A stretch of DNA of 10,335 nt. Source: a virus (taxonomy: Duplodnaviria > Heunggongvirae > Uroviricota > Caudoviricetes). The DNA is taken from IMG/VR virus record IMGVR_UViG_2609460059_000005; one strand, written 5' to 3'. Positions 79 through 10,214 of this stretch are shown here, piece by piece (positions within the stretch are counted from its first letter, which is position 1; the number at the start of each line of letters is the position of its first letter). The notes under the pieces were generated by a model, which ran no database searches, was not told the origin of the DNA, and was given only the letters and a program-made list of their open reading frames with translations. A program made the translations under genes and the position numbers.

Positions 79-1059
79 TTAGAGATCTAAGCTCTGCTGT
101 GTTGGTTCTGCTCTCAGATTTAAATCTTCACTAAAAATATAATCCATAATTTCTTTCAATTCAGTTGGCATTAGAAAAGATAAAGATTTTCGATTTTCCT
201 CTGAAAAGCTCAATTCCGGTCTTAAATTATATGTATTAGGTAAGTACGGATTAGCAATTTTCTTCGAATATTTATAAGCATATTCAACTGTGTGAGCAGT
301 ACCGCTTTTTATCTTCCACTCCACAGGAATAAGAGATGTGCACAGCGCAGCTTGAATTCTATTGCGTCTTACAAAATTTTCAGCGCTATAAATTTGGTCA
401 GGCAAATATTCAGTGACAATTGCACCTCCGCTTAAAACTATTTGATTGTAGAGATTTTTAGATCCCTTGGGATATTCTACAAAAATCCCGTTACCTAACA
501 CTGCAATTGTAGGTATCCCATAACGAATAGATTCATAATGGCATGATTGGTCAATCCCAGTAGCTAAACCACTTACAGTAACTATATCTTTTTCATACAA
601 CCCAGATACAATTAGTTTAACCAGAAAAATGCCATCATCTGTTGGCTTTCGCGTACCAACGATTGCAATTGATTTCTTATTAAGAATATCTTGATTCCCA
701 TGAACAAAAAGCCAAAAAGGAGGATCACTTATATTCTTTAAATTAGTTGGGAAAGTAGGTTGATCAAAAAAGGTTAGAACAATTCCTTTTTTATTTAATT
801 CTCTCGCTCGTTCTAATCCTTTCGCCCACAACTCTTGTTGAAATTCCTCCCACGCGATATCTTTGGGTAACGCAACCCTTAGATATCCAGCCAAAGCATC
901 AGCTGAACTAGCTTTTAAAAGATTTTTAAACCCTAGTTTGGATTCGTATATTTTACGGAGAGTCCAATAACCAACACCTTTTAAGCAGGTCAACGCAAGA
1001 AATGCTATGATTTCATTTTTCCAAAACTCTCTAATTTCAGTGTAATCTTTATCTTCCAT
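79..1059 (-). CDS. DprA/Smf-like (SLOG/Rossmann-fold) protein, 326 aa, in AT-rich cargo DNA
   Basis: Provided ORF. N-terminal segment LALTCLKGVGYWTLRKIYESKLGF resembles the DprA SAM/HhH-like domain. Core has SIAIVGTRKPT, VSGLATGIDQSCH, TIAVLGNGIFVEYP, RRNRIQAALC and KSGTAHTVEYA, matching the DprA Rossmann-fold pattern from memory. Composition is much more AT-rich than the adjacent sid/delta/primase block. Confidence 0.65.
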   Translation of the reverse strand: MEDKDYTEIREFWKNEIIAFLALTCLKGVGYWTLRKIYESKLGFKNLLKASSADALAGYLRVALPKDIAWEEFQQELWAKGLERARELNKKGIVLTFFDQPTFPTNLKNISDPPFWLFVHGNQDILNKKSIAIVGTRKPTDDGIFLVKLIVSGLYEKDIVTVSGLATGIDQSCHYESIRYGIPTIAVLGNGIFVEYPKGSKNLYNQIVLSGGAIVTEYLPDQIYSAENFVRRNRIQAALCTSLIPVEWKIKSGTAHTVEYAYKYSKKIANPYLPNTYNLRPELSFSEENRKSLSFLMPTELKEIMDYIFSEDLNLRAEPTQQSLDL

Positions 1060-1448
1060 TTTTTTGCCTTATAGATTACAACTCACGCAATACTAATAAC
1101 AAAAATAATCATATTGTAGACATGTTATAAATAACATTTTAGCATCCATTTGTGAAGAGGCATCTTCTTACCTTTCCACGTTCTACAATCGCTAACTTAG
1201 TATGTCTTGTAACTCTTTTTGTCGTTTAACTACCATCCTCTCATACTCCCTGATTCCACTTATGAACCCAATCAATACACAGGCAGCAGTTTTTCTTCTT
1301 TCTGCGGTTGATAGAACGATATATCAGCTTTTGGTGGTACCAAAGATTCTATTCATAAATTTATCTCGCAAGTGATCAAACACACATACTCTTTCAACTT
1401 CTTTACTCAGCGCGCGCAGCCCCGCCCGCCTGCCCGCTTCGCTTAACA

Positions 1449-1580
1449 GAATGGTTTTCATGCACCCCGTAAATCGTCTCAGGAGCCGCCACACAAGGGC
1501 TTTCGCGTCAAAAACGGCGCATGAGACTCATGCGTTTTCATGCACCATAGACATGCACTCATGCGCTCTCAGGCCAGCCA
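1449..1580. repeat. Imperfect ~80-bp duplicated non-coding unit (GTTTTCATGCACC ... CTCAGG ... ACTCATGCG) with an internal palindrome CGCATGAG-A-CTCATGCG
   Basis: GTTTTCATGCACC occurs at about 1453-1465 and 1533-1545; ACTCATGCG at about 1522-1530 and 1556-1564; inverted repeat at 1513-1530. No ORF of 60 aa or more covers this segment. Confidence 0.5.
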
Positions 1581-1592
1581 GGAAAAAGGCGT

Positions 1593-1619
1593 AAAAAATC
1601 CCGGTACAGTACCGGGATT
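1593..1619 (-). terminator. Rho-independent terminator downstream of the Ogr/Delta-like gene
   Basis: Perfect 10-bp inverted repeat ATCCCGGTAC-a-GTACCGGGAT (1598-1618). On the minus strand it is followed by a run of six U residues (plus-strand A-run 1593-1598). It lies about 20 nt after the stop at 1640. Confidence 0.6.
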
Positions 1620-1639
1620 ACGTGGGCATTTTATGTTGA

Positions 1640-1912
1640 TCAGACAGGGATTTGCTGACGGCTTGATAACTTTGATGCAGAGCCATAGCGATTGAGCGTT
1701 TTCTTTTGCTTTTCAGGCTCTTCCGGTTCATCTGATTCCTGTTCATTGCGCCGGGGTTTCATAATTATCGTATCCACACTTTCCAGTGCGGTAAATGTGC
1801 AGGAACATTCAAGATTCTGGCACTGATACCATGAGCGTTTAACCGATGGTGCTTCATAGGCGGAGGTTCTGGCGTGTGCCGTAGTGCCGCATTCGGGACA
1901 TTTAAGTGCCAT
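1640..1912 (-). CDS. Ogr/Delta-family zinc-finger late-gene transcriptional activator (P4 Delta-like, single domain), 90 aa
   Basis: MALKCPECGTTAHARTSAY...YQCQNLECSCTFTALES matches the C-x2-C ... AHARTS ... QCQN-x2-CS-x-TF signature of P2 Ogr / P4 Delta. SD GGAGG lies 7 nt upstream. Start overlaps the stop of the upstream gene (TGATG). Confidence 0.85.
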   Translation of the reverse strand: MALKCPECGTTAHARTSAYEAPSVKRSWYQCQNLECSCTFTALESVDTIIMKPRRNEQESDEPEEPEKQKKTLNRYGSASKLSSRQQIPV

Positions 1913-2673
1913 CAGATACCCTCCGCGGCTCGGTTACGTTTTTGCAGTTCTTCACGTTCCTGCCGGATCTTCATTTTATGAAGGGCCGCCGGAGAGGGAA
2001 GTTTGCGGAAATCAGCAAGGGCAGCATAATCCGGCGCAACACCTGCCAGTTTAAATACCGGGTCCTGTTCCGGCATCGCAGCGTTAGTAAGAGCCGGTTT
2101 GGTGATATGTTTGTGAATAAATTCTTTCAGTACTGTGTCCGGGTCATTAACTGAATTCACCACACCCACAACGGCACTGGCTTCCCGCCCCATTGTGGTT
2201 TTGAGCAGGCTCAGTGTCTGGATTAACGCCTTACCATGCGACTGCATGAAGTCTTCCCAGATTTGCTTTGCGCGAATTTCCACAAGGGTGTTATGTGCGC
2301 TGATATACTGCCCGGCTAATTTCCCGGCCTCCTGCGGTAATAAGGCATTTTCGCTTTCCTGAGCTGCCAGCAGTTCATCAAAATCCTCAAGCGTTTCTCG
2401 TCCCAGCGCAATTTCCGTGCGCAGTTTTTTCATTTCCTTTGAGACTACGCCCTGACTTTCACGAAACAGCGTGCGCCATTCCTCATTCAGCGCGTTAGTC
2501 GTGGCTTCCATTTCAGCGCGGCGCTGGCGGATTGTCGCAATATTATCTGCTGCCGCTTTTTGCTGACGACGTGCTTCAAGCCATGCGTTTCTGGTTGTGT
2601 TCAGGGTTTCCAGTGCCCGCTGCGTTACAGCCGGAAAAGTGGAAAGGCTGGTATTCTCTGCGGTGTTGTTCAT
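1912..2673 (-). CDS. Putative Sid-like capsid size determination (external scaffold) protein, 253 aa
   Basis: Provided ORF with SD AGGAG 6 nt upstream. Alpha-helical, charged, low-complexity composition. Immediately precedes and is translationally coupled to the Ogr/Delta homologue, as in the P4 sid-delta pair, and size is close to P4 Sid. Family assignment rests on context and recalled similarity, not a search. Confidence 0.5.
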   Translation of the reverse strand: MNNTAENTSLSTFPAVTQRALETLNTTRNAWLEARRQQKAAADNIATIRQRRAEMEATTNALNEEWRTLFRESQGVVSKEMKKLRTEIALGRETLEDFDELLAAQESENALLPQEAGKLAGQYISAHNTLVEIRAKQIWEDFMQSHGKALIQTLSLLKTTMGREASAVVGVVNSVNDPDTVLKEFIHKHITKPALTNAAMPEQDPVFKLAGVAPDYAALADFRKLPSPAALHKMKIRQEREELQKRNRAAEGI

Positions 2674-2706
2674 GACTTCTCCTGTCGGGTTGCTTCGTTA
2701 CGTCAA

Positions 2707-2726
2707 TTGTGTCGTGGCTGACACAA
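2707..2726. promoter_or_regulatory. Dyad-symmetric element TTGTGTC-N6-GACACAA upstream of the sid-like gene
   Basis: Perfect 7-bp inverted arms at 2707-2713 and 2720-2726. It contains TGT-N12-ACA, the pattern described for Ogr/Delta-activated late promoters of P2/P4. Its centre is only about 43 nt from the sid ATG, closer than the canonical -55 position. Confidence 0.35.
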
Positions 2727-2848
2727 GCGCACTATCGGTGCTCAGTGTGTGGTGGCTGGCACAACGGGCGTTTTCAGTTATTCAGGCGTGGCTATGAAAG
2801 CCAGCCAGATAAAAATGCCTCGGTTTCAGTCTGCGTTATGTCCCTGCA

Positions 2849-3047
2849 GTGGTGGAACAGGTGAAACATGTGTTACATCATTGTTTTATAAATTATTTAT
2901 ATGCACAGCACAGGTGGAACATCGCGGGTAACAAGGTGGAACAGCGGATCGGCTGGCGTTCCACCTGTTCCACCTCACTATTTCAAAAGGTGGAACAGGC
3001 TCAGCCCTTATAAAATACGGTTGTTCCACCTGTTTCACCTGTTACCC
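2849..3047. repeat. Iteron cluster, putative replication origin, immediately downstream of the primase gene
   Basis: At least 8 copies of GGTGGAACAG / CTGTTCCACC in both orientations (about 2851, 2913, 2935, 2958, 2965, 2989, 3022), plus degenerate copies GGTGAAACA (2860) and TGTTTCACC (3031). The motif resembles the P4 type I iteron TGTTCACC as recalled. No regular spacer structure. Confidence 0.6.
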
Positions 3048-3073
3048 TTAATAAATAAGACTCACGCAAAGCC

Positions 3074-5746
3074 TTAACCCGGCACCTCGCTGTTGAAGAC
3101 ATAGAGTCTGCGGGGATTCATCTCTGGCGGGCGAATGGTTGTCTGTAGCTTGCCATCGGTGGAGGGCAGCAGGTATCCACGATCCGCGCACAAACGCGCC
3201 ACCTTGCGCGGGTCAAATCCCCGGCAGATTTCTTTCCAGCCGGACGGCATGACGTAGAACGTGGTGACGGCTTCCGTGCCCTGCGCGGTACTCCCTTTCT
3301 CCACCCTGCGCCAGCCCACCATATTGCCGGGGCGGTTGCGCTCGTCGTGCCAGTCTGCAAAGCGGCTGTACTGATTCGCGGTAAAGAAACTGCGTACCTG
3401 CTCCAGCGCGGCAATATCTTCCTGATTGGCAGTATGCCCGCGATCTTTCAGCCATGCGTTCAGGCAGACGCGGGTTGCCCGCAGGGCTTCTCCCTCAGGC
3501 CAGCCGGTGATCCCCATACGGGTTGCCAGCTCGCCCGCCATCGCCACCAGTGCAAATCGGTTGACGGCCCGGCCCACCTGATTACCCGCATCTTTCGGGG
3601 TCAGCGCGGCGGTATATTCCTTCATCAGTGACTTTGCCTGTGACGTCAGCCCGTTAAGGTCAGCGGTCAGGGCTTTCAGCCACTCCCGGAACGGCGAACC
3701 GTAGTAGCTGGACGTGGCCCACTCCAGATGTTCCGCCAGTGCCTTGCCGCTGTCGAAGCCGTGCAGCTCCTCAAATACGCCAAATTTCCCGGAATCGCTG
3801 GGGATCTGGATCATCCTGACTTCCATCCCGGCAAAGGTACGCTCACCAGCTTTTGCCGCATGTTCGGTCAGTGACAGCTCGCCGGTTGAAAAGAACAGCA
3901 GCCGCCACTGCTTACGGGTGCGCAGCTCACCGTCCGTACCGGCACGGCCCTTGCCCTGACCGTTTGCCAGCATGTAGGCGATATTGCCTGCCTCGCGTCC
4001 GTCCACCTCCCGGATCTCATCGAGCATCATGGCGGCATCGTTGCGGCGGCTGGCGCATCCCTCCAGCGCGTTGCCGGTTGCCCGCCACGTCTGCCAGTAG
4101 TCAGGCCCGCCGCAGACGGAGGTTGCCGCTTTCATTGTGGTGGTCTTACCGTCCGTCGATTCCCCCTTGAGGTGATAGCCGCCGCCGTCCATACCAACCA
4201 ACCGTAACAGGGGGGCAGCAAACGCCAGACTGACGGCAAACGCCACGCGGGAGTTGCCGGTGCAGTAGCGGGAAACGTGCTCCCGCCATTCCTCCGTTGT
4301 GCCCGACACGCGGAAATCGCGACCCTGCACGGAAGTGGTCTGGAGAATGACACCCTCTGCACCTTCACCGCTGACCTCATCCTGCAGGACGTAAACCTGA
4401 CCATGCCAGCCGGTGCGGCTGACGCAGGTCACGCGGCGTTCCGGTTTACAAAGAGAGATATATTCCATAAGGCGTGCGCGGGCCTCACCGGTGGTGCTGA
4501 TATAGGACAGCCCGTTGACCAGCAGTACCCGGCGCAGCTCCTCACCGCTGCCGCTCAGCATTTCCATCGGCATCGCCCAGCGGCGGCGCTCACCCCACGT
4601 ATCTTCCCACTCCAGCAGTCGCCCGAAGTTACCGCCATCAGCATCGCAGGTGATTGCCGTTACGCGCAGCGGGTTGCATATTTTGACGTTCTGGATTTCC
4701 GTTTCACCGTTGCGCTGTACCTGTTTTTCATACCAGAGATATTCCTGGGTTAGACGGAACCCGTGCGGCAGTTGCGTGCGGCCCTCCCCGCACAGCACCA
4801 GACCGTTGCGAAAGGCTTCACGGGCACGGTTAATACCGTGCTCCCGATGGAAATCATTCCAGTCGGCCTTGATCTCTCCCGGTGGCAGCGTCATCCAGCC
4901 GCCAACGGCTTTTGCCGCCCGTTCAGCAAAAGATCTGCCGGGATTCTCGCCCCCGTCCTGAAAATCGTTATCACCGGCGATGATAATTTTTACCTCAGGC
5001 CAGCGTGCCCGCAGCGCCTGTGCGACGTTGGGCAGGTTGCCAGCAGATATGGCAGCCACTACGCATCCGGCGGTGATCTGGCTCACCGTCAGTGCCGTGG
5101 CGTAACCTTCGGTAATCACCACCTGTACCGGTGGTTCAGACGGTAACGGGCTGAGCGCCACAAACGCGCCTTTCATCGTGCTGCCGGGCAGTATGCTTTT
5201 TTCACCCGTCGGGGCGATAAGCTGCGCACCGGTCACGGCTCCAGCGTTGGTCGTGAGCGGTAGCAGCAGGGAGCCGGCAGGGAAATCCTTACCGCTGATA
5301 TGCTGCACGCTCCCGGTCAGGGGGGCCGGGTATCCGGCGAACCCTTTTCCGGTCAGATAGGGGCTTTCTCCCGTATGGCTCTCTTTCATCAGCGCCGCCA
5401 CGGTAAGGTTCATGTCGCGTTTAGGAGCTTTTTGCCTGGCGGGCTTAACGGGCAATTTCTGCACATCCGGAATATTAAGCACCTGCGCCACCTCCTGCGC
5501 GGCCTTTCTGACACCGTAACCGGTCATGAGCTTAACCAGATCCAGACCATCACCATTGCCGCACTGGCTGCAAATCCACGTCCCGCGCCCGTCAAGGTCA
5601 TCGAGGCGAAAACGATCCTTGCCCCCACATTTCGGGCAGGGACCGTGTCTGCCGTTTTCAGGTACATCAATACGCAGCATCTGCAGAATGACGGGCCATT
5701 TCCCCCGCGCGGCGGCTGAAATCTGCGTAACCGTCTGTGTTGTCAT
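3074..5746 (-). CDS. Primase-helicase (P4 alpha-like): N-terminal Zn-ribbon, Toprim domain, C-terminal Walker A/B NTPase; 890 aa
   Basis: Zn-ribbon CPKCGG...CSQCGNG. Toprim motifs VVITEGYATA and IIIAGDNDFQDGGENPGR. Walker A GESTDGKTT and Walker B-like MMLDEIRE. SD GGGGGA upstream. Start overlaps the stop of the upstream ORF (ATGA). Confidence 0.9.
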   Translation of the reverse strand: MTTQTVTQISAAARGKWPVILQMLRIDVPENGRHGPCPKCGGKDRFRLDDLDGRGTWICSQCGNGDGLDLVKLMTGYGVRKAAQEVAQVLNIPDVQKLPVKPARQKAPKRDMNLTVAALMKESHTGESPYLTGKGFAGYPAPLTGSVQHISGKDFPAGSLLLPLTTNAGAVTGAQLIAPTGEKSILPGSTMKGAFVALSPLPSEPPVQVVITEGYATALTVSQITAGCVVAAISAGNLPNVAQALRARWPEVKIIIAGDNDFQDGGENPGRSFAERAAKAVGGWMTLPPGEIKADWNDFHREHGINRAREAFRNGLVLCGEGRTQLPHGFRLTQEYLWYEKQVQRNGETEIQNVKICNPLRVTAITCDADGGNFGRLLEWEDTWGERRRWAMPMEMLSGSGEELRRVLLVNGLSYISTTGEARARLMEYISLCKPERRVTCVSRTGWHGQVYVLQDEVSGEGAEGVILQTTSVQGRDFRVSGTTEEWREHVSRYCTGNSRVAFAVSLAFAAPLLRLVGMDGGGYHLKGESTDGKTTTMKAATSVCGGPDYWQTWRATGNALEGCASRRNDAAMMLDEIREVDGREAGNIAYMLANGQGKGRAGTDGELRTRKQWRLLFFSTGELSLTEHAAKAGERTFAGMEVRMIQIPSDSGKFGVFEELHGFDSGKALAEHLEWATSSYYGSPFREWLKALTADLNGLTSQAKSLMKEYTAALTPKDAGNQVGRAVNRFALVAMAGELATRMGITGWPEGEALRATRVCLNAWLKDRGHTANQEDIAALEQVRSFFTANQYSRFADWHDERNRPGNMVGWRRVEKGSTAQGTEAVTTFYVMPSGWKEICRGFDPRKVARLCADRGYLLPSTDGKLQTTIRPPEMNPRRLYVFNSEVPG

Positions 5747-6126
5747 ACTTCCCCCTGATGCAGCGCCACACCCGTGCTGCAGAAGTCATCAAAGGCCGCC
5801 GGAAGCGTGCGGTACAGCTCCGCCATCACTTCACAGCCGCGCACAGTCAGTACCGGCGGCGCGGTCAGCAATGATGGTTCCAGCATGTCAGTCAGCAGCG
5901 CCAGCGCCGCCGCTGCTCCCTGTGCTTCGCCATATTCGTTAATCAGTGCGCACTCAATATGCAGGGCAATGGCCATTTCAATACGTTCAACCGTCAGGCT
6001 GTGCGGACCATATTGATCGCAGCCGGTTTCAGTCAGCGCTTTCTGGCGCCATGCCGATGCAATAGCCCGCCGGTAAAGCGCAGTAGTCATTTCTGCCGGA
6101 AAAATAGAAACCTGCGGCTGGTTCAT
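5743..6126 (-). CDS. Hypothetical protein, 127 aa, in the primase operon
   Basis: Provided ORF. Strong SD AGGAGG 7 nt upstream. ATGA start/stop overlaps with both neighbouring genes indicate translational coupling. Confidence 0.6.
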   Translation of the reverse strand: MNQPQVSIFPAEMTTALYRRAIASAWRQKALTETGCDQYGPHSLTVERIEMAIALHIECALINEYGEAQGAAAALALLTDMLEPSLLTAPPVLTVRGCEVMAELYRTLPAAFDDFCSTGVALHQGEV

Positions 6127-7433: not shown

Positions 7434-7664
7434 TTAGTGATTTGCATGCCGTTCACCACGAGAGGCATATATTTGCTCTTGAATCCAGTGATCGACTTCG
7501 CTTTCAACAAATGAAATTGCACGAGTTCCTATTTTTACTGGGCGGGGAAATGTATTATTTGAAAGCTGTTTGTAAAGCCATGCCTTGCTACGCTGAACGC
7601 GTCTTAACACCTCTTTTGCTGAAATAAGAGTCTGATTATCTGAAAGGTTGTTTGCATATTCCAT
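7434..7664 (-). CDS. alpA: AlpA/Vis-family phage transcriptional regulator (excisionase-like HTH), about 76 aa
   Basis: Start set at the internal Met (MEYANNLSDNQ...) with SD GGAG 8 nt upstream. LISAKEVLRRVQRSKAWLYKQLSNNTFPRPVKIGTRAISFVESEVDHWI matches the AlpA-family pattern. Gene lies near a P4-type integrase, as is typical. Confidence 0.75.
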   Translation of the reverse strand: MEYANNLSDNQTLISAKEVLRRVQRSKAWLYKQLSNNTFPRPVKIGTRAISFVESEVDHWIQEQIYASRGERHANH

Positions 7665-7928
7665 CTTGTTACTCCGTGTTCTACTTAAGTTCACGGTGAC
7701 TTTAAACACTGAAAAAAAGTGATTCTAGTGATAATGGAATCTATTAATACAAACGCTGATTCTATTGAAACGTGATAGTTTCTACTGAAAAAAGAAATAA
7801 TGTTCATATGAAAGAACACGAGAAGAGGAAAACGCACAACAAAATAAAATCAATAAAATTCATATAGATAGCATTGCAGCACAAACAAATCATACGTTAG
7901 AAGGTATTATTGCGTTTTATCGATTCAT

Positions 7929-8033: not shown

Positions 8034-8672
8034 TCACTCTCCGTATTTTATAATGTCTTTCCCCAGCTTTATTTTCTTATAGAACGTAGCTTTTTTAACT
8101 CCTTTCAATAGAATCTCATTCTCATTACAAAAAGAAACAATATCATTATATATAACACTATTATCGCTATAATTTCCCTTTCCATGTTTCTTAAGCAACT
8201 CAATTAGTAAGTAAATTAATTTACAACTATAATTATCCTCATCATCTTTTCTGTACTGCCCTCTGCCATTACTCCTTAACTTTTTACCAACTTCATATAA
8301 TTCACTTCCTCCTAGCATCATTAAAATATCGCCCCAATCTTTATTTTTTACTTGTTGTTGCAATGCGTTCTCAATTCTTTCCTTAATTTCAGGAGGTACA
8401 ATATCTTCCCTCTGAAAGATATAAGCGGCAGTTAATACTAAATTCGCCTCCACTTTTTGCGTGGCGGATATGTTTTTATATTCATTAATCAATTGTAGAT
8501 TTCTGGTTATTGCCTTTCTTAACCGAATAACCTCTTTTAATTGAATATCAGTCAATTCATCATTTTCGGTATCATAGTCAAAACCATTCATAGCAAGCGC
8601 CACTTCGTGCGGCGTAATGTACGTTAACCTATTAAAATAAAACAAATTATTATCAGATTGAGTGTTATTCAT
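8034..8672 (-). CDS. Hypothetical protein, 212 aa, AT-rich orphan gene between integrase and alpA
   Basis: Provided ORF. Strong SD GAGGAG 8 nt upstream. Starts 30 nt after the integrase stop. Clearly more AT-rich than its neighbours. No recognisable motifs. Confidence 0.65.
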   Translation of the reverse strand: MNNTQSDNNLFYFNRLTYITPHEVALAMNGFDYDTENDELTDIQLKEVIRLRKAITRNLQLINEYKNISATQKVEANLVLTAAYIFQREDIVPPEIKERIENALQQQVKNKDWGDILMMLGGSELYEVGKKLRSNGRGQYRKDDEDNYSCKLIYLLIELLKKHGKGNYSDNSVIYNDIVSFCNENEILLKGVKKATFYKKIKLGKDIIKYGE

Positions 8673-8702: not shown

Positions 8703-9965
8703 TTATTTTCCATGCACACGCGCAAAATCATATGGTGTGATAGATCCATTCTTGTTAGCATCAATGTAATCAGCCCACCATTGCAGCATTAATTTTCTTT
8801 CTTCAAGATATTCAGAAGTATGCATATATGAACCTTTCACGTTTTTTCGTTCAACGTGACTTAGCTGTCTTTCAATGGCATCATCATTCCATAGTTTCGA
8901 CTCACTTAGCGCACCACGCGCCATAGTTCTAAAACCATGCCCACATACTTCTGTCTTCGTATCATATCCCATTACACGTAAGGCGCTATTTACAGTATTT
9001 TCACTCATAACTTTTTTAGGATCATGATCGCTGGGAAATATAACCTCGCCTTTACCGCTCAAGGCATGTAAACGTTTAAAAATATCAAATGCTTGTTTGC
9101 TAAGCGGAACAATATGTTCAGTTTTCATCTTCATCCCACGCTCAGAGTGTTTTACGCCGGGAATAGGTTTACGAATTCCGGGTATCGTCCACTCGCTTCG
9201 TTCAAAGTTAACCTCACTCCAGCGAGCAAAACGCATCTCACTTGAACGAATAAATGTGAGTAGCGTTAATTCAACGGCAAGCCGTGTCATTAGTCGCCCT
9301 TTATAGCGTGATAGTCTTTCAAGAAACTCAGGGATTCTTTTTGGGGGTAGTGCTGGGTGATGGGTTGCCTTAACGCTTAAAAGCGCTCCAGCCATATCAC
9401 TGGCAGGATTTGATTCAAGAAGGTCATTCTGCACACCGAAACGCATAATTGCGGTTACGCGCTGCATCAGTCGCTGCGCAACATCATGTTTACCTGCCGC
9501 ATCAACAGCTTTGATCGGATTGAGAAGCTGGCTGGTTCTCAACATTCTGGCGTCAATTTGACCTATCGAGGGGAAAATATACTGCTCAAGCGTCAGCAGA
9601 ACGCGACGGCTATGATCTTCGCTCCAAGTTAGGTTACTTGCGTGCCATTGCCTTGCGATAGTTTCAAATAAATATGCCCCCTCAATTTCAGCTTGTGCCC
9701 CCTTTTGCTCAGCTTTGGGGTCAATGCCCTGAGACAACAATTTCTTTGCTGCATCACGCTTACCCCGAGCCTCAGCCAAAGTGATCGTCGGGTATACACC
9801 AAAAGCGAGCCGATCTTCCTTTTTGTCAGATGGGCGGCGATATTTCATGCGCCAATACTTGGAACCTTTTGGGGAGACTTCAAGATACAAGCCGCCTCCA
9901 TCAGCCATTTTATAGGCTTTCTCTTTCGGCTTTGCGGTCTCTATCTGGCGAGCATTGAGTTTCAT
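8703..9965 (-). CDS. int: P4-type tyrosine integrase (site-specific recombinase), about 420 aa
   Basis: Start set at the internal Met (MKLNARQIETAKPKEKAYKMADGGGLYLEV...), a typical P4-family integrase N-terminus. C-terminal catalytic region has HGFRTMARGAL and the Y-containing KGSYMHTSEY. Gene is adjacent to, and co-oriented with, the tRNA-Leu 3' end. Confidence 0.9.
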   Translation of the reverse strand: MKLNARQIETAKPKEKAYKMADGGGLYLEVSPKGSKYWRMKYRRPSDKKEDRLAFGVYPTITLAEARGKRDAAKKLLSQGIDPKAEQKGAQAEIEGAYLFETIARQWHASNLTWSEDHSRRVLLTLEQYIFPSIGQIDARMLRTSQLLNPIKAVDAAGKHDVAQRLMQRVTAIMRFGVQNDLLESNPASDMAGALLSVKATHHPALPPKRIPEFLERLSRYKGRLMTRLAVELTLLTFIRSSEMRFARWSEVNFERSEWTIPGIRKPIPGVKHSERGMKMKTEHIVPLSKQAFDIFKRLHALSGKGEVIFPSDHDPKKVMSENTVNSALRVMGYDTKTEVCGHGFRTMARGALSESKLWNDDAIERQLSHVERKNVKGSYMHTSEYLEERKLMLQWWADYIDANKNGSITPYDFARVHGK

Positions 9966-10019
9966 TTTGGGGGCACAAATCCTGATCGAATTGACATGCC
10001 CCCGATTATGCCCCCAAAA
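9965..10019. promoter_or_regulatory. Inverted repeat TTTTGGGGGCA ... TGCCCCCAAAA flanking the integrase start and 5' leader
   Basis: 11-bp arms at 9965-9975 and 10009-10019, with an extra TGCCCCC at 9997-10003. The left arm abuts the int ATG (9963-9965). No strong SD precedes the int start. Confidence 0.35.
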
Positions 10020-10129
10020 GAGGGTAGACCACAAGAGACCAACAAAGACCATGAAATACGGTAACTTGCTTGTTTTTAAGGATTTTTTCTGGATTTGTAG
10101 ACTTCAGGAAACGTCAAAAGAAGTGTTAA

Positions 10130-10214
10130 TGGTGCCGAAGGCCGGACTCGAACCGGCACGTATTTCTACGGTTGATTTTGAATCAACTGCGTCTACCGAT
10201 TTCGCCACTTCGGC
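10130..10214 (-). tRNA. leuX: tRNA-Leu (anticodon CAA), leuX-type
   Basis: Reverse complement reads GCCGAAGTGGCGAAATCGGTAGACGCAGTTGATTCAAAATCAACCGTAGAAATACGTGCCGGTTCGAGTCCGGCCTTCGGCACCA. It has a 7-bp acceptor stem, a CAA anticodon in a 7-nt loop, a long variable arm, a GGTTCGAGTCC T-arm and a CCA end. Confidence 0.9.

What the first reader, a model, noticed from the sequence alone, without database searches (positions are those of the whole stretch)
2700..2730. TGT-N12-ACA-type dyad upstream of the sid-like gene, but at non-canonical spacing
TTGTGTC-N6-GACACAA fits the activator-binding motif of Ogr/Delta-dependent late promoters. It lies between the iterons and sid, where a delta-responsive promoter would make sense, but its centre is only about 43 nt from the sid start codon. 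It may be a late-promoter element with a very short leader, or an operator for a different regulator.
Basis: partly seen in the sequence, partly recalled or inferred. Interest (0 to 1): 0.4.

Follow-up and report, generated by a model that had tools for sequence, protein, structure and literature searches.

The report
Second activator site in satellite-phage late promoter
The palindrome is real, but it is the promoter-proximal one of two conserved Ogr/Delta-type activator sites in the sid late promoter of a P4-like satellite prophage, matching the two-site layout seen in phage P4's own sequence, so it is an ordinary member of a known kind.

Summary
The dyad TTGTGTC-N6-GACACAA (2707-2726; core TGT-N12-ACA 2708-2725) is present as described, 43.5 nt from the sid-like ATG (2673, minus strand). 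Phage P4's sid promoter has the same geometry: two dyads 38 bp apart, the proximal one 43.5 nt from the sid ATG. This holds although the two Sid proteins are only 24% identical. In 146 related loci (55 distinct upstream sequences) both dyads are always present, 38-39 bp apart. The only invariant bases are the four TGT/ACA arms, a -10-like CACAATT overlapping the proximal right arm, two bases of a weak -35, the ribosome-binding GG and the ATG. With CACAAT as the -10, the start site falls near 2699. The distal dyad then sits at -55.5, the canonical activator position as in annotated P2 late promoters, and the finding's dyad at -17.5. It is therefore the counterpart of the second (about -18) Delta site of P4 Psid, not a misplaced -55 site. 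Its regulatory effect (self-limiting or cooperative) is inferred, not shown. Interest is low: a new member of a known kind.

The parts
2708..2725 (-). Promoter-proximal TGT-N12-ACA dyad (the finding; extended arms 2707-2726). Predicted position -26 to -9, centre -17.5. Counterpart of P4 Psid dyad 9531-9548.
   Evidence: Same distance to the sid ATG (43.5 nt) as in P4. TGT 2725-2723 and ACA 2710-2708 are invariant in 55 distinct sequences.
2746..2763 (-). Predicted centre -55.5, the canonical Ogr/Delta activator position. Counterpart of P4 Psid dyad 9493-9510.
   Evidence: 89% identical to the proximal copy, 38 bp away. Invariant TGT/ACA. Activator sites annotated in P2 lie 55-58 nt upstream of mapped late start sites.
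2705..2711 (-). Invariant CACAATT. CACAAT (2711-2706) is the candidate -10 hexamer and overlaps the right arm of the proximal dyad.
   Evidence: All seven bases are invariant in 55 distinct upstream sequences. The same hexamer is in P4 at 9545-9550. Function as a -10 is inferred.
2729..2734 (-). Weak -35-like hexamer TAGTGC, 17 nt upstream of CACAAT. Only T2734 and G2732 are conserved.
   Evidence: T2734 and G2732 are invariant. No consensus sigma-70 promoter in 2600-3100, as expected for an activator-dependent promoter. Inferred.
2697..2700 (-). Predicted transcription start (about 2699), giving a leader of about 26 nt.
   Evidence: Inferred from the position of CACAAT and from the -55 rule seen in the P2 annotation. 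Not measured.
2679..2683 (-). Shine-Dalgarno AGGAG of the sid-like gene.
   Evidence: GG 2682-2681 is invariant.
1912..2673 (-). sid-like gene (253 aa), first gene of the operon.
   Evidence: Pfam Psu family, E 2.8e-8. 24% identity to P4 Sid over 241 aa, E 1e-12. Weaker and shorter match to P4 Psu.
1640..1912 (-). Single-domain Ogr/Delta-type zinc-finger activator gene (90 aa), the likely protein that binds both dyads.
   Evidence: Pfam Ogr_Delta, E 3e-16. 41% identity to the N-terminal half of P4 Delta. One CxxC...C motif against two in P4 Delta.
2849..3040 (.). GGTGGAACA iterons (replication-origin-like) between the primase gene and the promoter, as P4 ori type 1 repeats lie just upstream of Psid.
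   Evidence: P4 annotation and sequence.

Best explanation
The window holds a P4-like satellite prophage integrated next to a tRNA-Leu(CAA) gene. The finding's dyad (2708-2725) is the promoter-proximal one of two binding sites for Ogr/Delta-type zinc-finger late activators in the promoter of the sid-delta operon, which is read on the minus strand. The activators would be the satellite's own 90-aa Delta-like protein and, by analogy with P4, the helper phage's Ogr. The distal dyad (2746-2763) sits at about -55.5 from a predicted start near 2699. It is the class-I-type activating site, as in P2 and P4 late promoters. The finding's dyad is centred at about -17.5. It fills the spacer of a weak core promoter (TAGTGC, 17 nt, CACAAT), and its right arm is part of the -10 hexamer. 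It matches the second dyad in P4's sid promoter sequence, which I recall was footprinted as a Delta site at about -18. Shown here: the motif, the pairing, the identical geometry in P4, and family-wide invariance of both sites and of the -10-like block. Inferred: the start site, and that the activator occupies the proximal site. I think the most likely role is modulation of a promoter that drives its own activator gene. Occupancy over the -10 and spacer at high Delta levels would cap the positive feedback loop (my preferred reading, about 50%). Alternatively, the second site raises the promoter's affinity for limiting helper Ogr by cooperative binding (about 35%).
For: Two exact TGT-N12-ACA dyads lie 38 bp apart and are 89% identical to each other. 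P4 Psid has dyads at 9493-9510 and 9531-9548. They are also 38 bp apart, and the proximal centre is also 43.5 nt from the sid ATG. This holds although Sid is only 24% identical and blastn found no match for 1600-3100 in the phage collection that contains P4. All 69 upstream regions examined (51 distinct) carry both dyads, at 41.5-45.5 and 79.5-84.5 nt from the ATG. The N12 differs between clades. In the pooled set of 146 loci (55 distinct), every locus has exactly two dyads in the promoter window. The only invariant columns are the four arms, CACAATT, T and G of a -35-like hexamer, the Shine-Dalgarno GG and the ATG. The invariant left arm TGT lies in the spacer, where sigma-70 imposes no sequence constraint. 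An Ogr_Delta gene follows sid. The P2 RefSeq annotation places activator sites 55-58 nt upstream of mapped late start sites. TGT-N12-ACA is quoted as the P2 late-promoter consensus in PMC3931495. No sigma-70 consensus promoter and no terminator-like site is found in 2600-3100.
Against: No transcription start was measured for this element. The -10 and start-site assignment rests on conservation and geometry only. The right arm of the proximal dyad overlaps the -10-like hexamer, so its conservation could be due to the -10 alone; only the left arm is independent evidence for a protein site. The statement that P4 Delta footprints sites at -55 and -18 of Psid comes from my memory of Julien & Calendar 1995 (PMC177091). 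Reiter et al. 1998 (PMC107552, reference) analysed activation from the sid promoter. Neither paper could be read here, and I do not know what they concluded about the role of the second site. The direction of the regulatory effect is not determined by any result here.
Confidence: 0.8

Rival explanations
1. The finding's dyad is itself the activating (-55-type) site of a late promoter with a very short or absent leader.
For: It is an exact TGT-N12-ACA with 7-bp arms, and an Ogr_Delta gene is adjacent.
Against: A start 55-58 nt downstream of its centre (2716.5) falls at 2658-2662, inside the ORF that begins at 2673. The N-terminus of Sid, its Shine-Dalgarno GG and its ATG are conserved. A second dyad sits at exactly the canonical distance from an invariant -10-like hexamer. 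P4's sequence has the same two-dyad layout.
Confidence: 0.03
2. The dyad is an operator for a different regulator, such as a repressor or the AlpA/Vis-like protein, and not for Ogr/Delta.
For: Its position over the spacer and -10 is typical of repressor operators. No binding data exist for this element.
Against: Its half-sites (TGT/ACA, 12-nt spacing) are those of the distal site, and here the two sites match at 17 of 19 positions. Both stay TGT-N12-ACA in every clade while the inner bases drift. No repressor-type DNA-binding gene was recognised among the nine large ORFs scanned against Pfam, apart from the AlpA-like ORF 7434-7709.
Confidence: 0.07
3. The proximal 'dyad' is not a protein site. 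Its right arm is conserved only because it is the -10 hexamer, and the left arm and the symmetry are incidental or a relic of a 38-bp duplication.
For: ACA 2710-2708 lies inside the invariant CACAATT. The window's two sites and a degenerate third copy at 2780-2793 share the core (G)CGTGGCT on the + strand, which suggests tandem duplication.
Against: The left arm TGT (2725-2723) is invariant in 55 distinct sequences spanning Sid identities from 24% to 100%. The 12 bases between the arms and the flanking spacer bases vary freely. Exact 12-nt arm spacing is kept in every locus.
Confidence: 0.07
4. The inverted repeat acts as an RNA hairpin or terminator for read-through transcription from the primase gene.
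For: A 7-bp stem with a 6-nt loop is possible, and the primase gene is upstream on the same strand.
Against: No terminator-like site is found in 2600-3100, and only TT follows the stem. In other clades and in P4 only the outer 3 bp stay complementary, so a stable stem is not conserved.
Confidence: 0.02

Closest known systems
Bacteriophage P4 sid promoter (Psid). From my memory of Julien & Calendar 1995, it has two Delta-binding sites, site I at about -55 and site II at about -18. Reiter et al. 1998 analysed activation from this promoter.
   Same: Two TGT-N12-ACA dyads 38 bp apart. The proximal centre is 43.5 nt from the sid ATG. CACAAT overlaps the proximal right arm. Origin iterons lie just upstream, and sid followed by an Ogr/Delta gene lies downstream.
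   Different: blastn found no match to P4 for 1600-3100, and Sid is 24% identical. The activator here is a single-domain 90-aa protein, whereas P4 Delta has two domains and 166 aa. The two sites here are nearly identical to each other, unlike in P4. No psu gene follows delta. The primase is of the Toprim + DUF927 type and lies on the same strand directly upstream.
P2 late promoters PP, PO, PV and PF (Ogr-dependent, TGT-N12-ACA consensus at about -55)
   Same: The distal dyad (2746-2763) has the motif and the predicted -55.5 position. The -35 is poor, implying activator dependence.
   Different: In the sequence up to 75 nt upstream of each annotated start, none of the four P2 promoters has an exact TGT-N12-ACA dyad. 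By eye, each has one imperfect dyad at the annotated activator site (right arm CCA in PO and PF) and no second site over the spacer and -10. The satellite promoter has two perfect sites.
P4 PLL late promoter
   Same: A single TGT-N12-ACA (7801-7818) lies about 100 nt upstream of the AlpA-like gene. This resembles P4's dyad 9133-9150 upstream of orf88.
   Different: It is a separate promoter from the finding. I saw no proximal second dyad there in the window.

Membership tests
Ogr/Delta-dependent late promoter, activating site (-55 class) | Dyad of the form TGT-N12-ACA | tested here: met
   Exact matches at 2708-2725 and 2746-2763. The consensus is quoted in PMC3931495.
Ogr/Delta-dependent late promoter, activating site (-55 class) | Dyad centred about 55 nt upstream of the transcription start (finding's dyad, 2708-2725) | tested here: not met
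   That placement puts the start at 2658-2662, inside the sid ORF that begins at 2673. Relative to the invariant -10-like CACAAT, the dyad is centred at -17.5.
Ogr/Delta-dependent late promoter, activating site (-55 class) | Dyad centred about 55 nt upstream of the transcription start (distal dyad, 2746-2763) | tested here: inconclusive
   The centre is 46 nt from the centre of CACAAT, giving -55.5. This agrees with the 55-58 nt in the P2 annotation. The start site itself is predicted, not measured.
Ogr/Delta-dependent late promoter, activating site (-55 class) | Cognate Ogr/Delta zinc-finger activator encoded by the element or its helper | tested here: met
   ORF 1640-1912(-) matches Pfam Ogr_Delta, E 3e-16.
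Ogr/Delta-dependent late promoter, activating site (-55 class) | Transcription depends on the activator | not testable with these tools
   Only indirect: no sigma-70 consensus promoter in 2600-3100.
P4 Psid-type two-site promoter (site I + site II) | Two dyads about 38 bp apart upstream of a sid homologue, the proximal one overlapping the -10 region | tested here: met
   Window. P4. All 146 related loci.
P4 Psid-type two-site promoter (site I + site II) | Delta/Ogr protein physically binds the proximal site | not testable with these tools
   Recalled for P4 from Julien & Calendar 1995, which is not held. Here the support is the invariant left arm TGT in the spacer.
P4-like satellite | Core genes int, alpA, primase (alpha), sid, delta, psu, epsilon | tested here: inconclusive
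   Int, AlpA, Toprim/DUF927 primase, DUF5375, a Sid-like protein and Ogr_Delta are present. No psu ORF lies between delta and the cos-like region. Epsilon was not recognised. The element lies next to tRNA-Leu(CAA).

The most novel reading that the evidence does not exclude
The proximal (-18-type) site may be a universal, satellite-specific addition to the Ogr-type late promoter. It is kept at fixed geometry in every P4-like lineage sampled, including those whose Delta has a single domain. It could act as a concentration-dependent switch: cooperative capture of scarce helper Ogr at low levels, then self-limitation of the sid-delta operon at high Delta levels. That would make promoter architecture itself part of the piracy mechanism. 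The published P4 work was unreadable here, and I cannot say whether it already settled this.
Probability: 0.3. Interest if true: 0.45.

Novelty: new member of a known kind. Interest (0 to 1): 0.2.

Why it matters
The practical value is in annotation. In P4-like satellites the sid late promoter can be recognised from sequence alone as a fixed cassette: TGT-N12-ACA, then 20-21 nt, then TGT-N12-ACA running into CACAATT, with the ATG about 30 nt further on. A dyad close to the start codon should therefore not be read as an aberrant -55 site.

The relatives of this 1.5-kb stretch are common. Matches occur in 855 of 5426 complete E. coli genomes.

A modest biological point also follows. The two-site layout is kept in satellites whose Delta is a single Ogr-like domain, so it is not a by-product of P4 Delta's tandem duplication. 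It is probably functionally required. As far as I could establish here, its role remains unclear.

Tried and rejected
- **DNA similarity to known phages.** blastn of 1600-3100 against the phage collection found nothing. P4 had to be fetched by accession and compared by geometry.
- **Literature.** They yielded only the consensus statement and the reference to Reiter et al. 1998. Julien & Calendar 1995 and Reiter et al. 1998 are not held. Two review ids recalled from memory were also not held.
- **Genome search.** The genome-contig scan with the single Sid protein gave only 7 close loci. An alignment query on viral contigs was needed for diversity.
- **Rfam.** Only the tRNA was found, so no known RNA family explains the dyad.
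- **Terminator or hairpin reading.** Rejected: no T-run and no conserved stem.
- **Divergent plus-strand promoter using the same dyads.** Considered and rejected. The mirror-image hexamer is CACAAC, it is not conserved, and no plausible + strand gene follows.
- **Exact P2/P4 cos sequence.** Not found with up to 3 mismatches.

Full report
**1. The observation**

The + strand at 2707-2726 reads TTGTGTC GTGGCT GACACAA. This is a perfect 7-bp inverted repeat around 6 nt, with a TGT-N12-ACA core at 2708-2725. Its centre, 2716.5, is 43.5 nt from the ATG at 2673 of the minus-strand ORF 1912-2673. GGTGGAACA iterons occupy 2849-3040. The description is therefore accurate.

A single TGT-N12-ACA is not remarkable. 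The window has 4 against 2.28 expected, and 34 of 200 shuffles reach 4. However, two of the four lie 38 bp apart in this one intergenic region. The second is at 2746-2763 and is 89% identical to the first over 19 nt (family D6).

**2. The context**

All large genes lie on the minus strand:
- tRNA-Leu(CAA), 10130-10214
- a tyrosine integrase, 8703-10052
- an AlpA-like protein, 7434-7709
- a DUF5375 protein, 5743-6126
- a zinc-ribbon/Toprim/DUF927 primase, 3074-5746
- the iterons and the two dyads
- a 253-aa protein of the Psu/Sid family, 1912-2673
- a 90-aa Ogr_Delta zinc-finger protein, 1640-1912 (E 3e-16)

The 253-aa protein aligns with P4 Sid over 241 residues (24% identity, E 1e-12). It aligns with P4 Psu over only 110 residues, so 'sid-like' is fair. 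The Delta-like protein has one zinc-finger domain and is 41% identical to the N-terminal half of P4's two-domain Delta.

This is a P4-like satellite prophage of a lineage distant from P4 itself. blastn of 1600-3100 found no match in the phage collection. Matches to the same stretch occur in 855 of 5426 complete E. coli genomes.

**3. Comparison with P4**

In P4 (NC_001609), TGT-N12-ACA occurs at 9493-9510 and 9531-9548, just upstream of sid, whose ATG is at 9583. The spacing is 38 bp, and the proximal centre is 43.5 nt from the ATG. Both numbers are identical to those in the window, despite the sequence divergence. In both elements the proximal right arm runs into CACAAT, and origin iterons lie just upstream.

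**4. Comparison across the family**

I collected three sets of loci:
- 7 loci from reference genomes
- 61 from IMG/VR, using an alignment of diverse Sid homologues with 43-97% identity
- 79 P4-clade loci, 77 of which were used

In one search, all 69 upstream regions examined (51 distinct) had exactly these two exact dyads. They sat at 41.5-45.5 and 79.5-84.5 nt from the ATG, 38-39 bp apart, while the N12 differed between clades. All 77 P4-clade loci kept both dyads too.

I then pooled 146 loci, which gave 55 distinct 113-nt sequences. The alignment has 23 invariant columns:
- distal TGT (2763-2761) and ACA (2748-2746)
- T2734 and G2732
- proximal TGT (2725-2723)
- CACAATT (2711-2705)
- GG of the Shine-Dalgarno sequence (2682-2681)
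- ATG

Dyad density is 36 per kb in the promoter window against 0.37 per kb in the rest of the same loci.

**5. Promoter model (inferred)**

CACAAT (2711-2706) is a 4-of-6 match to TATAAT, with the key A2 and T6. TAGTGC (2734-2729) lies 17 nt upstream and keeps T1 and G3 of TTGACA. No consensus sigma-70 promoter is detected in the region, which fits an activator-dependent promoter.

With the -10 at -12 to -7, the start is at about 2699 and the leader is 26 nt. The distal dyad is then centred at -55.5 and the finding's dyad at -17.5. The same arithmetic in P4, with a start at about 9557, also gives -55.5 and -17.5.

The P2 RefSeq record annotates activator-binding sites 55-58 nt upstream of the mapped PP, PO, PV and PF starts. 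PMC3931495 quotes TGT-N12-ACA as the P2 late-promoter consensus.

From my own memory, Julien & Calendar (1995) footprinted P4 Delta at about -55 in all P2 and P4 late promoters. I also recall that they found a second site at about -18 in the P4 promoters. Reiter et al. (1998) analysed 'a complex control system' at Psid (reference seen). Neither paper could be read here. The reproduced numbers agree with what I recall, but the recollection is not a test.

**6. What the finding is**

It is the promoter-proximal (site II-like) Ogr/Delta site of a Psid-type late promoter. It is not the activating site, because a start 55 nt downstream of it would lie inside the sid ORF. The 'non-canonical spacing' arose only because the distal site was overlooked.

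The best evidence that the proximal dyad is a protein site, rather than just a -10, is its left arm. That arm is invariant yet lies in the spacer, where RNA polymerase imposes no sequence requirement.

**7. How it probably works**

The distal site recruits RNA polymerase as in P2 late promoters. The proximal site spans -26 to -9. Because the operon encodes its own activator, I favour a dose-dependent brake on the positive feedback loop. Cooperative enhancement of activator capture is the main alternative. Nothing computed here discriminates between the two.

The two-site layout persists in satellites whose Delta is a single domain, so it is not tied to P4 Delta's duplication.

**8. Rivals**

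- A short-leader -55 site is excluded by geometry.
- A different regulator's operator is unlikely, because the two sites share half-sites and match at 17 of 19 positions in this window.
- A '-10 only' reading does not explain the left arm.
- A hairpin or terminator has no T-run and no conserved stem.

**9. Verdict**

The element is a new member of a known kind, the counterpart of the second dyad of P4 Psid in a divergent satellite lineage. Interest is low. The small new point is the strict family-wide conservation of the cassette.

Noticed in passing
window 7801-7818 (with 7759-7764): Another exact TGT-N12-ACA (TGTTCATATGAAAGAACA) lies about 100 nt upstream of the AlpA-like gene (7434-7709, minus strand). 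A TAGAAT hexamer sits about 48 nt downstream of its centre. This resembles P4's PLL dyad (9133-9150) upstream of orf88. I saw no second proximal dyad there.
   Followed up: partly
window 2780-2797: A degenerate third copy of the dyad unit lies 36 bp upstream of the distal site (ATTCAGGCGTGGCT, 79% to the proximal copy; family D4). It shares the core GCGTGGCT but lacks the TGT/ACA arms. It may be a relic of tandem duplication of a ~38-bp unit.
   Followed up: no
window 1059-1640: No psu-like ORF follows the delta-like gene. Instead there is a terminator-like hairpin with a T-run (about 1592-1617, minus strand), repeated GCATGA motifs, and a G-rich stretch GGCGGGCGGGG (about 1415-1433) that resembles the P2/P4 cos end. 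The exact cos 19-mer is absent even with 3 mismatches.
   Followed up: partly
window 79-1059 (minus strand): A 326-aa DprA/Smf-family protein (Pfam DNA_processg_A, E 1e-57) lies beyond the cos-like region, in lower-GC-looking DNA. This is where P4-like satellites are reported to carry variable anti-phage cargo (PMC13586616). It was not tested against defence-system models.
   Followed up: no
window 3074-5746 and 1640-2673: The gene order differs from P4. The primase (Toprim + DUF927, 890 aa; similar to P4 alpha only over the N-terminal ~320 residues) is on the same strand as sid-delta and directly upstream of the iterons and promoter. In P4 the two modules are on opposite strands.
   Followed up: partly
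related loci L006, L020-L029, L031-L069: In many relatives a 183-190-aa ORF follows sid directly. I did not scan it; by size and position it is probably Psu, giving the order sid-psu-delta. In the window's clade a 90-aa Delta follows directly. The two-dyad promoter is the same in both arrangements.
   Followed up: partly
window 8034-8672 (minus strand): A 212-aa ORF between the integrase and AlpA-like genes has no Pfam match. Its region reads as AT-rich relative to the rest of the element (not measured). It may be accessory cargo.
   Followed up: no
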